Shown here piece by piece: positions 46,308 to 64,000 of a DNA stretch of 64,000 nucleotides. How positions within the stretch are numbered: position 1 is the stretch's first letter; every line of letters begins with the position of its first letter. Source of the stretch: a virus; the IMG/VR virus record IMGVR_UViG_3300027754_000067, positions 22,543-86,542 of that record. One strand, written 5' to 3'. Below the pieces are notes generated by a model that made no database searches, had not been told where the DNA came from, and saw only the letters and a program-made list of their open reading frames with translations. A program made the translations under genes and the position numbers.

Positions 46308-46625
46308 TCCTGATCTGTGGTTTCATTTTCAACAACTTCCATGGATTCTTCTACAGATTCCAATGCGGGCTGTTTTTCTCGATATTGGACTGCAAACCAA
46401 CATCCAACACGGCAAACATTCCAACTTTCATATTTTATTTCTTGATTGTTCATTTTTTTCTCCTTGAAGTATTTTACGTTAAATTTTAGTAATGTCCGTT
46501 TCGGATAGATTCTATGTTGATAAATAATTTATGTTTGTCAACGGCACTTGTATGATGGCTATGCACAGTATCACAATCATCATCACATCGCTCAAAAATT
46601 TCAGATTCACACTCAATAATTTTAT

Positions 46626-46886
46626 TGCATGAGCAGAAAACCCACACCCTCGTCCTGTGGGATGAATGCGATTCATTTTAATATAATTTGAACAAAAACA
46701 TATTTTGCATAATAATTAAAAACGTCGGAGCAATTAATTTTTCCGATATCGTTCGGAACGAACGATTACGAGCATGGAGAGAATATAAAACCAACTGGCT
46801 TGCCAGCGGTAATTTTCGGTGAAGTGCTTAAAGTTCTAGAGACAAACTCTTTAGAAGCTCACAGGCTTGTCCTGTGAGTAGTTCAC
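46626..46886 (+). mobile_element. Non-autonomous IS200/IS605-family mini-element carrying a TnpB omega-RNA scaffold
   Basis: Left-end hairpin CCCACA..TGTGGG nearly identical to 63887-63937; right end AGAAGCTCACAGG..CCTGTGAGTAGTTCAC; no ORF; TTTAT at the 5' flank. Confidence 0.85.
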
Positions 46887-46927
46887 AGTAACAGAGGCCA
46901 CAGAACATGTCAAATTGTTAATTTAAA

Positions 46928-47182
46928 TTATTTTTTTAACGTTTTTAAAACTTCTTCTTTTACAATTGTTTTTAAATTGTATCTTTTAAATTTTTCTTCA
47001 ACTTCTGGATGATCCGCAAGAAATTTCTCCATTTTCATTATCTCTTCTGGAGATAAATGCACTGGTTTTTCTTCGGGCAACTCTACTGGTTCTTCATCAG
47101 ATAACTTTTGCGTGTATTGATTTTTTGGAAATATTTGCATATGGATCTCTTTCAATTTAAATAGTAAATTATTTTGATTCAT
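46928..47182 (-). CDS. hypothetical protein (C-terminal LKTIVKEEV)
   Basis: ORF. Confidence 0.6.
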   Translation of the reverse strand: MNQNNLLFKLKEIHMQIFPKNQYTQKLSDEEPVELPEEKPVHLSPEEIMKMEKFLADHPEVEEKFKRYNLKTIVKEEVLKTLKK

Positions 47183-47831
47183 CTTTTTCAGAAGATAGGA
47201 AATTATTACCTTTATCCGTAATATTGAAAATGGTTACATGTTTATGAGAGCCAGGGCGATGATTACCTTCATTGTCTAATTTGGTTTCATTTATCTCTTC
47301 AAACTCTGCAAGGTTATTATTACGAATATAATCAAGTAGATTATTTATTTGATCTGGTATGTTTGATATCAAACCATAATCTAACGCTTCACCTGTCTGA
47401 TGAGCAGATATACCTTCTGGGTACTGATAAAGGATTTCTTTTGCTTTTTCAATAAGCCGTCCAGCTAAAGTTTTAGGCATGATTTTAAGCATTGTATTTG
47501 GGATAAGTTTTGTATTTTCTTCCCATACACTAGCTATTTTTGACGCTATCTCACCAGCTTTACTATTACAGCTTTTGCAATCTACTGCATATAGCTTGAT
47601 AAGAAATTTGCTACCTTCTCTTTTCCAAATATCAAACATGGCAGAAATCTGCCTATCAGATAATCGCAAGCCACTTGTTATAACTGGTTGTTTGTATCCA
47701 AGCCTAAGTGCTGCTTTATCCATGATATCAGCGAATTTTTTCGCATCGTCGGATACATTCATGTCTGAGTCAACAGATTTATACTCGAAAAGAATATCGT
47801 ATAGCTTGATTTTATTTTTTAAATGTGTCAT
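47169..47831 (-). CDS. peptidase M15-like (peptidoglycan) tagged protein
   Basis: KLYDILFE; ITSGLR...Q; SAH..GEALD; H.H. Confidence 0.7.
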   Translation of the reverse strand: MTHLKNKIKLYDILFEYKSVDSDMNVSDDAKKFADIMDKAALRLGYKQPVITSGLRLSDRQISAMFDIWKREGSKFLIKLYAVDCKSCNSKAGEIASKIASVWEENTKLIPNTMLKIMPKTLAGRLIEKAKEILYQYPEGISAHQTGEALDYGLISNIPDQINNLLDYIRNNNLAEFEEINETKLDNEGNHRPGSHKHVTIFNITDKGNNFLSSEKDESK

Positions 47832-47850: not shown

Positions 47851-48444
47851 TCAAGGATTTAGTAAAGATCCGCCTTTGGCAATCACCCAAGCGTCAATCA
47901 TGTCTCCGTTGCTGGAATCGTAGACTTCTTGATTTTTCCTGGAGCCAGTTTTAGCAATGTGTTTTTTGTATGGAAATTCAGGGTGCAGAGCGATAACATA
48001 ATCTTTAACTTGTTCTTTCTTCGGTCGTTTGTCGGCTTTATTATTTTTAAAGCCTACAGCTTTTCTTGCGCTTGATACATTAACATCAATGACTTGCGCT
48101 CCAAAAGCTTTATGGGATAAATATGATAATAAGACATTGAATTTTGCAAGAGTTATCAAAGTATCAGCAGAAGAAAATCCCGGCATGAACATTTTAGCGT
48201 TCGCCTCAACAAAGATTTTATCTATATTTCTACCATTTACTAACTTCTTTATTTCTTCTATACCTCTATCAGCTTTATCGAACATAGTTATGCAGCTAGT
48301 TGGGAATTTTATAGCATCTAGTAAAATTAAATTTAAATTTTTGTCTAAAATACATACACCAGTGCAGCTAGTCGATATATCAAGGCCACAATAATATGAT
48401 TCCTTGTCATTTTCGCCAACGTCTTTTTCTTTGTTTTTCTTCAT
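47851..48444 (-). CDS. ruvC: RuvC-like Holliday junction resolvase
   Basis: GLDISTSCTG; IFVE; K..V; D..DA..IA. Confidence 0.8.
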   Translation of the reverse strand: MKKNKEKDVGENDKESYYCGLDISTSCTGVCILDKNLNLILLDAIKFPTSCITMFDKADRGIEEIKKLVNGRNIDKIFVEANAKMFMPGFSSADTLITLAKFNVLLSYLSHKAFGAQVIDVNVSSARKAVGFKNNKADKRPKKEQVKDYVIALHPEFPYKKHIAKTGSRKNQEVYDSSNGDMIDAWVIAKGGSLLNP

Positions 48445-63705: not shown

Positions 63706-63886
63706 ATGAATAAAAAATTTATTGACTTATTAAAATCCATTATAGCTGAGCAGATTTCAGAGGCTCTTCCTGCTACCTCTAGCGTTGCGAGAAGGATGAC
63801 AGCACAAAAATAAGCGGCACCAGACTCTATTGGTGCAGATCCTTATAAGAAAAAAAGCCCATCAGGGAAAGTCATTACCAATTTAT
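63706..63886 (+). pseudogene. Tagged-family gene with in-frame TAA (63811-13), truncated by an IS insertion
   Basis: MNKKFIDLLKSIIAEQISEA...; the frame stays open after the TAA up to the IS left end. Confidence 0.5.
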
Positions 63887-64000
63887 TGCATGAGCAGAAA
63901 ACCCACAGGCTCGTCCTGTGGGATGAATGCGATTCATATAGAAAAATAAATTTACACCATACTTAATATTAGGTATAAAGTAAATGGTTCTGCAAAACAA
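63887..64000 (+). mobile_element. IS200/IS605-family element left end, probably followed by tnpB (runs off the window)
   Basis: About 50 bp near-identical to 46626-46676; preceded by TTTAT; TTTACA-17-TATAAA promoter and ATG at 63984 (MVLQN...). Confidence 0.7.

What the first reader, a model, noticed from the sequence alone, without database searches (positions are those of the whole stretch)
46486..46908. TnpB-less omega-RNA mini-transposon whose removal restores a gene; TAM and guide are readable
Seen: a 261-bp element (46626-46886) with an IS605-type left hairpin, an omega-RNA-like body (ATCGTTCGGAACGAACGAT..CATGGAGAG..TGAAGTGC) and right end ...GTAGTTCAC, with no target duplication. Joining the flanks restores a minus-strand ORF MFCGLCY|YKIIECESEIFERCDDDCD...NGHY*. 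Both this copy and the one at 63887 follow TTTAT. Established: the TnpB guide is the sequence 3' of the right end, and the TAM equals the insertion motif. Inference: guide AGTAACAGAGGCCACAGAAC with TAM TTTAT targets the empty allele using TnpB in trans, probably the ORF starting at 63984. This would be RNA-guided homing or inter-phage competition.
Basis: partly seen in the sequence, partly recalled or inferred. Interest (0 to 1): 0.7.

Follow-up and report, generated by a model that had tools for sequence, protein, structure and literature searches.

The report
Guide-RNA mini-transposon in phage gene
A 261-base gene-less jumping element that keeps only its two ends and a guide RNA sits where most of a giant freshwater phage's gene has been lost; guide-only elements like this are already known, so it is an instructive but fairly ordinary case.

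Summary
The element is real. Window 46626-46886 is a 261-nt IS200/IS605 mini-transposon (PATE) with three parts: a left end after TTTAT, a promoter-like spacer, and 139 nt that align to and fold like the 3' end (omega-RNA scaffold plus right end) of a 1.39-kb tnpB-only element. The second copy at 63887 is 114 of 114 identical to the start of such an element in another phage contig. There the ORF continues as a 416-aa TnpB.

The claim that removal restores a gene fails. Relatives carry a 220-235-aa gene at this place, and 547 nt of it are missing here, exactly where the element sits. So the element marks an element-associated deletion, not a simple insertion.

The guide logic partly survives. 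In the closest relatives, protein sequences imply TT(T/A/G)AT directly before the guide-matching sequence, so the intact allele is probably a target. I could not obtain their DNA.

PATEs that carry omega RNAs for TnpB supplied in trans are already described (Meers 2023), and the same TTTAT motif is reported there.

Verdict: new member of a known kind, moderate interest.

The parts
46621..46625 (+). TTTAT target motif (TAM) flanking the left end (site 1). It lies inside the 3' part of the disrupted gene, as the reverse complement of the codons for D-K.
   Evidence: 10 of 10 distinct left ends of this type follow TTTAT; two X2 contigs align up to 46625 (TTTAT included) and then continue into the intact gene.
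46626..46676 (+). Left end (LE). Hairpin arms are 46641-46648 and 46654-46661, with loop 46649-46653. Two inner pairs are mismatched in this copy only.
   Evidence: The 5' arm reads like the TTCAT-type subfamily (CCCACACC) and the 3' arm like the TTTAT-type (CCTGTGGG).
46677..46747 (+). AT-rich spacer, weakly alignable to the tnpB promoter region of full-length copies. It holds a promoter-like site, TTGAAC-17-AATAAT, at 46688-46716.
   Evidence: The promoter-like site is not above chance: 3 sites found against 2.7 expected. The spacer is conserved in all mini copies, but they are near-identical overall.
46748..46886 (+). Omega-RNA scaffold region plus right end (RE). RE hairpin is 46858-46878 and the element ends in TAGTTCAC at 46879-46886.
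   Evidence: alignment to L010, L012, L013 3' ends. (38 consensus pairs, one compensatory AU to GC). (same helix order; -44.4 against -47.5 kcal/mol). (z = -2.66).
46887..46906 (+). Predicted guide portion of the omega RNA, taken by rule as the 16-20 nt beyond the RE. It is also the remnant of the promoter/5' region of the disrupted gene (site 2).
   Evidence: Rule from Meers 2023 passages. Homology of 46889-47501 to L022 1-636. The TTG frame reads LTCSVASVT, matching the P0003 N-terminus.
46486..46623 (-). 3' remnant of a 220-235-aa phage gene of unknown function: its last 45 codons plus the stop.
   Evidence: 73-100% identical to the C-termini of P0001-P0004 and of members of the P0003 cluster. 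No Pfam or PHROG family.
63882..64000 (+). Copy B: TTTAT (63882-63886), LE from 63887, promoter-like TTTACA-17-TATAAA (63951-63979), and the tnpB start ATG at 63984. It is cut by the contig end.
   Evidence: the window ends at the contig end. (114/114 identical to L013). (the L013 ORF is a 416-aa TnpB; PDB 8h1j E 9.9e-78). The promoter-like hexamers were read by eye.

Best explanation
What it is: window 46626-46886 is a non-autonomous IS200/IS605 mini-transposon (PATE). It derives by internal deletion from a ~1.39-kb tnpB-only element that the same uncultured freshwater jumbo phage also carries (copy B at the contig end). It keeps three parts: the left end, a diverged copy of the tnpB promoter region, and the last 139 nt, which are the TnpB omega-RNA scaffold and the right end.

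Where it sits: it is not a simple insertion. Its left end abuts a TTTAT inside the 3' part of a 220-235-aa gene (site 1). Its right end abuts that gene's promoter/5' region (site 2). The 547 nt between these two points are gone.

How that most likely arose (inferred): two same-orientation insertions after two TTTAT-like sites, followed by recombination between the copies. A TnpA-made adjacent deletion is the alternative.

How it would work (inferred): the RNA is transcribed from the internal promoter-like site and bound by TnpB made from full-length copies in trans. It would direct cutting of DNA that has TTTAT followed by the sequence of 46887-46902. That target is the donor joint if the element is ever excised. 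It is probably also the intact allele of co-infecting relatives at site 2. Repair from this genome would then copy in the element together with the deletion.

Shown versus inferred: the anatomy, homology, shared fold, TAM rule, deletion and tnpB identity are shown. Expression, TnpB binding, cutting, the exact TAM at site 2 in relatives, and the origin of the deletion are inferred.
For: Family and mobility:
- The element and three further ends lie in the same 86.5-kb contig.
- Near-identical 259-262-nt minis sit at other insertion sites in other phage contigs.
- The left-end pattern scan of IMG/VR gave 11 stretches: 10 true ones in 5 contigs and 1 chance match, L011.

TnpB:
- Full-length copies L010, L012 and L013 carry a 416-430-aa TnpB ORF and no tnpA. 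The ORF resembles solved TnpB over residues 2-392.

Omega-RNA region:
- The mini's last 139 nt align to the tnpB 3' end.
- The consensus fold has 38 pairs. One pair changes on both sides (AU in the 4 minis, GC in the 3 full copies), and 4 pairs change on one side and stay paired.
- The apical hairpin is replaced by a different hairpin at the same place, and the MFE folds have the same helix order.

TAM rule:
- TTTAT stands before 10/10 left ends of this type.
- The left-end base R in CAGRAAA is A with TTTAT (the 9 TTTAT-type left ends) and G with TTCAT (3/3). This fits TAM choice by pairing to the left end.

Deletion:
- blastn places window 47501-46889 on L022 1-636 and window 46621-45773 on L022 1184-2025.
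- The L022 ORF 612-1319 ends like the window remnant.
- P0003 has 53 cluster members. Its N-terminus equals the window's right flank in the TTG frame.
- In X2, contigs pass 46625 into sequence that I translated by hand to EINFQCWRG-D, matching P0006, P0010 and P0014.

Literature:
- PATEs 'often encode omega RNAs' acted on in trans by TnpB, and TTTAT is the TAM of ISGst2 TnpB2 (PMC10055086, passages read).
Against: - There is no evidence of expression. The promoter-like site is no better than chance, and no RNA run was examined.
- No Rfam family matches.
- The contig ends 17 nt into tnpB, so an intact TnpB in this very phage is inferred, not seen.
- No Y1 TnpA was found in any of the 3 phage records searched, all of them fragments.
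- This copy's left hairpin has two mismatches, so it may no longer be mobile.
- The minis are 94-96% identical to each other, so their conservation may only reflect recent spread.
- The one compensatory pair separates the two subgroups (minis against full copies), so it counts as a single event.
- The TAM at site 2 in relatives rests on protein sequences (I = ATH), not DNA. Only 3 of the 8 members that read through the site have SVT-IN.
- In L022, the only relative read as DNA, neither site has TTTAT: the left-flank alignment shows site 1 reading TGAAT on the + strand, and the L022 letters after position 636 (print) give site 2 as GTTAT.
Confidence: 0.6

Rival explanations
1. Inert relic. The mini-element is a decaying deletion derivative that spread recently. 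Its RNA is not made or not used, and it merely marks a dead gene.
For: - The promoter-like site is at chance level.
- The left hairpin is weakened by two mismatches in this copy.
- No TnpA was found in 0 of 3 records.
- Decayed solo-hairpin relics exist in L006 and L022.
- High identity among the minis is compatible with recent spread alone.
Against: - The whole omega scaffold is kept while the entire tnpB ORF is lost.
- Changes relative to the full-length copies keep the pairing and replace one hairpin by another.
- A second subfamily (TTCAT type) has made an analogous mini that also keeps its 3' RNA region.
Confidence: 0.27
2. This is a simple insertion into a 53-codon gene, precise excision restores that gene, and the joined flanks are the ancestral empty allele.
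For: - Joining the flanks gives an open, in-frame ORF.
- The ORF would fit the tight minus-strand gene packing.
Against: - Relatives have 547 nt more between the flanks, within a 220-235-aa gene.
- The right flank's homologous frame is the TTG frame, not the ATG frame.
- The in-frame join has a one-in-three chance.
- The 45-aa remnant has no homologue of 24-79 aa.
Confidence: 0.04
3. The deletion came first. A phage lineage had already lost the 547 nt, and the element later inserted after the TTTAT that happened to lie at the deletion junction.
For: Insertion after any TTTAT is possible, and TTTAT occurs 213 times on the window's + strand.
Against: Both deletion end points coincide within about 3 nt with the element's two ends. 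That is unlikely unless the element made the deletion. No contig in 4 runs joined 46625 to 46887, though contigs drop rare variants.
Confidence: 0.07
4. Domesticated regulator. The mini's RNA guides a TnpB or a dead TnpB-like protein to repress a promoter (TldR-like), rather than to cut DNA.
For: The guide-matching sequence lies in the promoter/5' region of the disrupted gene.
Against: - The TnpB of the full-length copies shows the motifs GVDLG, IEDL and RDWNAS in its sequence. These align with the matching motifs of the best PDB hit, an AI-designed RNA-guided nuclease. That these are the RuvC catalytic motifs is recalled.
- In this genome the target is preceded by the right end, not a TAM, and its gene is already destroyed.
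- The element is multi-copy with different flanks.
Confidence: 0.02

Closest known systems
PATE-like IS200/IS605 elements of Geobacillus stearothermophilus that encode omega RNAs but no protein (Meers et al. 2023; preprint PMC10055086, passages read)
   Same: - Gene-less, with LE and RE hairpins shared with tnpB-bearing elements.
- The omega RNA is kept and TnpB is needed in trans.
- The transposase is needed in trans.
- The TAM equals the insertion motif.
   Different: - Here the element is in an uncultured freshwater jumbo-phage genome, not a bacterial chromosome.
- This copy sits at a 547-nt deletion junction, so its TAM side and its guide side come from two different sites.
- The paper's Extended Data figures and supplements were not seen, so details of its PATEs could not be compared.
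ISGst2 TnpB2 (TAM TTTAT) and ISGst5 IscB (TAM TTCAT) (PMC10055086, passages)
   Same: The same two pentanucleotides flank the two subfamilies found here: TTTAT for 10/10 left ends and TTCAT for 3/3.
   Different: - Sequence relatedness to the Gst proteins was not tested.
- The TTCAT-type full copy seen here (L024) ends with an HADINAAINI-type motif, and its family was not determined.
TnpB with its omega RNA as solved (PDB 8h1j, 8bf8/8ex9/8exa; that these are ISDra2 TnpB is recalled; Karvelis 2021, PMC8612924, seen as search listing and abstract only)
   Same: - Protein E-values of 1e-77 over residues 2-392, with the same three Pfam domains.
- The RNA overlaps the 3' end of tnpB and the RE, and the guide lies beyond the RE.
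   Different: - TAM is TTTAT rather than TTGAT (the latter recalled).
- The RNA was not compared with the ISDra2 omega RNA.
- The mini lacks the protein gene altogether.
Free-standing homing endonucleases of T-even phages (marker exclusion / intronless homing) and 'transposon non-restorative homing' (review PMC13565253, passages)
   Same: The proposed outcome is the same: a nuclease from one phage cuts the allele of a co-infecting relative, and repair copies the donor's version.
   Different: - Recognition here would be by RNA guide plus TAM.
- The review treats the phage case as theoretical.
- Nothing here shows that cutting happens.

Membership tests
IS200/IS605 non-autonomous element (PATE) | Subterminal imperfect palindromes (hairpins) at both ends, and no terminal inverted repeats | tested here: met
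   LE hairpin at 46641-46661 (6 of 8 pairs in this copy, 8 of 8 in the other 9). RE hairpin at 46858-46878 (8 pairs)..
IS200/IS605 non-autonomous element (PATE) | Insertion 3' of a fixed penta-nucleotide, without target-site duplication | tested here: met
   TTTAT stands before 10 of 10 distinct left ends. The flanks of this copy share no repeat.
IS200/IS605 non-autonomous element (PATE) | No protein-coding gene inside; ends shared with a coding element | tested here: met
   The longest internal ORFs are 38 and 44 codons. LE and RE are shared with the tnpB elements L010, L012 and L013.
IS200/IS605 non-autonomous element (PATE) | Mobilised by a Y1 (HUH) TnpA supplied in trans | tested here: inconclusive
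   PF01797 was found in 0 of 3 phage records (G000, G001, G002), all fragments at 24%, 24% and 4% complete. The host is unknown. Copies at different sites show past mobility.
TnpB omega RNA | Derived from the 3' end of tnpB plus the RE, on the same strand | tested here: met
   The 139 nt at 46748-46886 align to the last 136 nt of three full-length elements.
TnpB omega RNA | Conserved multi-helix scaffold | tested here: met
   Same helix order in the MFE folds. 38 consensus pairs, one compensatory. z = -2.66. Support from covariation is thin, amounting to one event.
TnpB omega RNA | Transcribed, processed and bound by TnpB; guide of about 16 nt beyond the RE | not testable with these tools
   No RNA data were examined. 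The guide position is taken from the published rule.
TnpB omega RNA | Match to a curated RNA family | tested here: not met
   No Rfam hit at gathering score. Only noise at E of 2 or more. Rfam may hold no model for this omega RNA type.
TnpB (copy B, window 63984 onward) | HTH, RuvC (OrfB_IS605) and zinc-ribbon/TNB domains | tested here: inconclusive
   Only 17 nt of the ORF lie in the contig. The 114 nt from the LE to the contig end are identical to L013, whose ORF has all three domains. GVDLG, IEDL and RDWNAS are present in the L013 ORF and align with the matching motifs of the best PDB hit, an AI-designed RNA-guided nuclease.

The most novel reading that the evidence does not exclude
The mini-element acts as an RNA-guided 'deletion drive' between co-infecting jumbo phages. 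Its left side comes from one TTTAT site and its guide side from another site 547 nt away. TnpB made by full-length copies and loaded with this RNA would therefore cut the intact gene's promoter in wild-type relatives. Repair from this genome would then replace most of the gene by the guide-only element. That would be a natural case of transposon non-restorative homing in phages, carried out by a protein-less element.
Probability: 0.15. Interest if true: 0.7.

Novelty: new member of a known kind. Interest (0 to 1): 0.36.

Why it matters
Guide-only IS200/IS605 elements are described in bacteria. This one shows that the same arrangement has proliferated in uncultured freshwater jumbo phages, in two subfamilies that each have full-length and mini forms.

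It also shows how such elements remodel phage genes, here by removing 547 nt of a conserved gene. If the predicted target in wild-type relatives is confirmed, the locus would give a concrete pair of natural alleles for testing RNA-guided homing between co-infecting phages. A 2026 review still treats that idea as theoretical (PMC13565253, passages).

It is also a caution: an in-frame ORF obtained by joining the flanks of an element is not evidence of the ancestral gene.

Tried and rejected
Searches for relatives:
- Homologues of the 45-aa remnant among proteins of 24-79 aa: none.
- Relatives of the neighbouring 220-aa protein in IMG/VR: none confirmed. In JGI metagenomes: 2 loci, of which only L022 covers the site.
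- Relatives of the disrupted gene in IMG/VR, with L022's ORF and with P0006: none.
- The exact 27-nt right flank in IMG/VR: none.
- P0003 and the element against GenBank phages: no match.
- P0024 against GTDB genome contigs: none.
- These tools may leave out records very near the window, so none of these results shows absence.

Other negative or weak results:
- The flank region against G001 and G002 matched only the element, not the flanks.
- Reads: I laid 4 of the 20 runs that hold the stretch (24 listed), all as Logan contigs.
  - No contig joined 46625 to 46887.
  - Contigs drop rare variants, so this is no evidence against an empty allele.
  - The higher summed depth over the element than over the flanks (for example X2, about 130-570 against 16-70) is no copy number.
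  - X4 record 17 seems to carry a different-type element after the same TTTAT (joints 46625 to 46629 and 46682 to 46850). The letters in between were not shown, so I draw nothing from it.
- Cross-targeting: none of the 9 distinct guides has a TAM-flanked match with 3 or fewer mismatches in another held phage locus. The exception is the TTCAT-type guide, which matches paralogous promoter units of its own genome with mismatches next to the TAM.
- Pfam and PHROGs on the disrupted gene and its neighbours gave no function, apart from a RuvC-like resolvase at 47851-48444.
- Rejected idea: that MFCGLCY resembles the internal ICNGCYW of the gene. The DNA alignment places the right flank at the gene's 5' region instead.
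- Supplements and Extended Data of Meers 2023 were not seen, and they may describe PATE omega RNAs in more detail.

Full report
**Setting.** The window is the last 64,000 nt of an 86,542-nt IMG/VR viral contig (G000:C1:22543-86542). CheckV rates the contig 24% complete, so window position 64000 is the contig end. A homologue of the gene disrupted here lies on a 399,135-nt NCBI contig (P0024). Runs that hold this stretch are freshwater, lake and river metagenomes: 20 runs in 14 studies hold part of it. So this is an uncultured freshwater jumbo phage. Earlier notes of this scan on the same genome say the same.

**The element.**
- Within the phage contig, the full 261 nt occur once.
- Three further ends occur in the contig:
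  - a left end (LE) at window 63887 (96% over 51 nt);
  - an LE at genome 72-121 on the minus strand, which runs off the contig start;
  - a right end (RE) at genome 16589-16631 on the minus strand.
- The last of these belongs to a second, 355-nt mini-element outside the window.
- A scan of IMG/VR with the LE motif gave 11 stretches: 10 true ones in 5 contigs and one chance match, L011. The RE motif gave 8 stretches in 3 contigs.
- Near-identical 259-262-nt minis sit at four more insertion sites read in full (L007/L014, L015/L018, L016/L023) or in part (L005, L009).

**The parent element.**
- In L010, L012 and L013 the same LE is followed by a 416-430-aa ORF that ends inside the same RE.
- The L013 ORF has HTH_OrfB_IS605 (1e-17), OrfB_IS605 (2.3e-30) and Cas12f1-like_TNB (2.2e-24).
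- It matches solved TnpB chains 8h1j and 8bf8/8ex9/8exa at E about 1e-77 over residues 2-392. GVDLG, IEDL and RDWNAS are present in the L013 ORF and align with the matching motifs of the best hit, an AI-designed nuclease, in the one alignment printed.
- These roughly 1.39-kb elements have no tnpA.
- Window 63887-64000 is 114/114 identical to L013 from the LE to the 17th base of the ORF. No TnpB domain is found elsewhere in the contig.

**The RNA part.**
- The mini's last 139 nt (46748-46886) align to the last 136 nt of the full-length copies.
- A consensus fold of 4 minis and 3 full copies has 38 pairs:
  - one pair is AU in the minis and GC in the full copies;
  - four pairs change on one side and stay paired;
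  - one is broken in one sequence.
- The apical hairpin differs in sequence but stays a hairpin, and the two MFE folds have the same order of helices (-44.4 and -47.5 kcal/mol).
- The 170 nt including the presumed guide fold better than shuffles (z = -2.66).
- In the mini the former TnpB reading frame is lost. Its 44-codon ORF is read in another frame (by eye), so what is kept is the RNA, not the coding sequence.
- The 71-nt spacer aligns weakly with the tnpB promoter region. It has a TTGAAC-17-AATAAT site, but such sites are no more frequent than chance here.
- No Rfam family matches.

**The target motif.**
- All 10 distinct LEs of this type follow TTTAT. TTTAT fills 0.33% of positions.
- The three LEs of the second subfamily follow TTCAT.
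- The only base that distinguishes the two LE types just before the hairpin (CAGAAAA against CAGGAAA) changes together with the third base of the motif. This is what the IS200/IS605 rule of target choice by pairing with the LE predicts. The rule is described in PMC10055086 (passages), which also reports TTTAT and TTCAT as the TAMs of ISGst2 TnpB2 and ISGst5 IscB.

**The gene.**
- A metagenome relative (L022) has, between the homologues of the 84-aa and 49-aa neighbours, a 235-aa ORF. Its C-terminus matches the window's 45-codon remnant.
- blastn places window 47501-46889 on L022 1-636 and window 46621-45773 on L022 1184-2025. So 547 nt of L022 correspond to nothing in the window, and the 261-nt element sits exactly in that gap.
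- The gene family is real. There are 4 homologues at E of 0.001 or less among 106 candidates, and one of them heads a cluster of 53 members.
- The closest members end like the window remnant, for example P0011 and P0017.
- The window's right flank, read from its TTG, gives LTCSVASVT. These are the first nine residues of P0003 (MTCSVASVT).
- The likely true start of the gene is the Met of the 220-aa forms, 15 codons further on, so the right flank is promoter/5' region.
- In run X2, two contigs follow the left flank to 46625 and then continue with 30 letters that I translated by hand as EINFQCWRG-D. This is the gene's own sequence in P0006, P0010 and P0014. So an uninserted site 1 with its TTTAT exists, but it is followed by the gene, not by the window's right flank.

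**What this means for the guide.**
- P0003, P0010 and P0014 read SVT-I-N after the shared stretch (3 of the 8 fetched members that read through this place). The others read TLN, IIN, ILS or ILN.
- Codons ATH-AAY on the minus strand put TT(T/A/G)AT on the + strand directly before the sequence that equals window 46887 onward.
- In L022 the aligned Ile codon is ATA, which would give TTTAT. This is an inference from proteins, and I could not obtain the DNA.
- If it holds, the element's two flanks are two separate TTTAT sites 547 nt apart.
- The simplest history is two insertions in the same orientation and recombination between them. A TnpA-made adjacent deletion is the alternative.
- The present element's RNA would then match two targets: its own donor joint after excision, and the intact allele at site 2.

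**Mobility.**
- This copy's LE hairpin has CC where the other nine have GG (46647-46648), leaving 6 of 8 pairs. Its 5' arm looks like that of the TTCAT subfamily. It may be a recombinant and poorly mobile.
- No Y1 transposase was found in the three phage records searched, all of them fragments.

**Comparison with what is known.**
[quoted passage not shown] So the kind is known.
- TnpB is said to be frequent in phages (PMC12607003, passages).
- A 2026 review lists homing of such transposons into co-infecting phages as a theoretical possibility (PMC13565253, passages).
- My three literature searches showed no paper describing omega-RNA PATEs in phage genomes. That is a statement about those searches only.
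I did not test it.

**Verdict.** The 'restored gene' is an artefact of an in-frame join. The homing idea is plausible in a modified form but untested. This is a new member of a known kind, with a moderately interesting twist.

Noticed in passing
G000:C1:16589-16943, minus strand (outside the window, about 5.6 kb before its start): A second, 355-nt mini-element of the TTCAT subfamily. It has its own different 3' RNA region, which matches the 3' end of a coding element in L024. It sits between a leaderless-type promoter (TTGACA...TAAGGT) and the ATG of the next gene. By eye, the flanks fit the spacing of the phage's repeated promoter units, so this copy looks like a clean insertion.
   Followed up: partly
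G000:C1:72-121 (minus strand) and window 63887-64000: Both ends of the 86.5-kb contig stop inside IS200/IS605 copies that point outward. The assembly probably broke at these repeats.
   Followed up: partly
L006 (about 44 nt after TTTAT; same place as L017) and L022 3130-3180: Ultra-short elements in which the 5' arm of the left hairpin is fused to the 3' arm of the right hairpin and the right-end tail. One is intact (L006) and one is decayed (L022).
   Followed up: no
Own genome, minus strand, at least 7 places: The flank (guide) of the TTCAT-type mini has 2-3-mismatch matches preceded by TTCAT at paralogous early promoter units (TTCAT is the reverse complement of ATGAA at the start codons). 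The mismatches lie next to the motif.
   Followed up: no
L012, about 1 kb downstream of the tnpB element's RE (minus-strand orientation of L012): A third left-end variant (TGATATGAGCAGAAAACTCACAGG...) after TTTAT, followed by a different ORF (MRRAIKIKLNISENDKNTLL...). It may be another TnpB-like gene and was not analysed.
   Followed up: no
window 63951-63986: The tnpB copy has TTTACA-17-TATAAA with the ATG only 4 nt after it. This resembles the phage's own leaderless early-gene layout. Read by eye only.
   Followed up: no
window 46794-46807, minus strand: A terminator-like hairpin with a T-run lies inside the element on the strand of the surrounding operon. It could be polar on the downstream minus-strand genes.
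   Followed up: no
window 47851-48444, minus strand: The 197-aa protein matches PHROG 159, a RuvC-like Holliday junction resolvase (1.2e-16).
   Followed up: no
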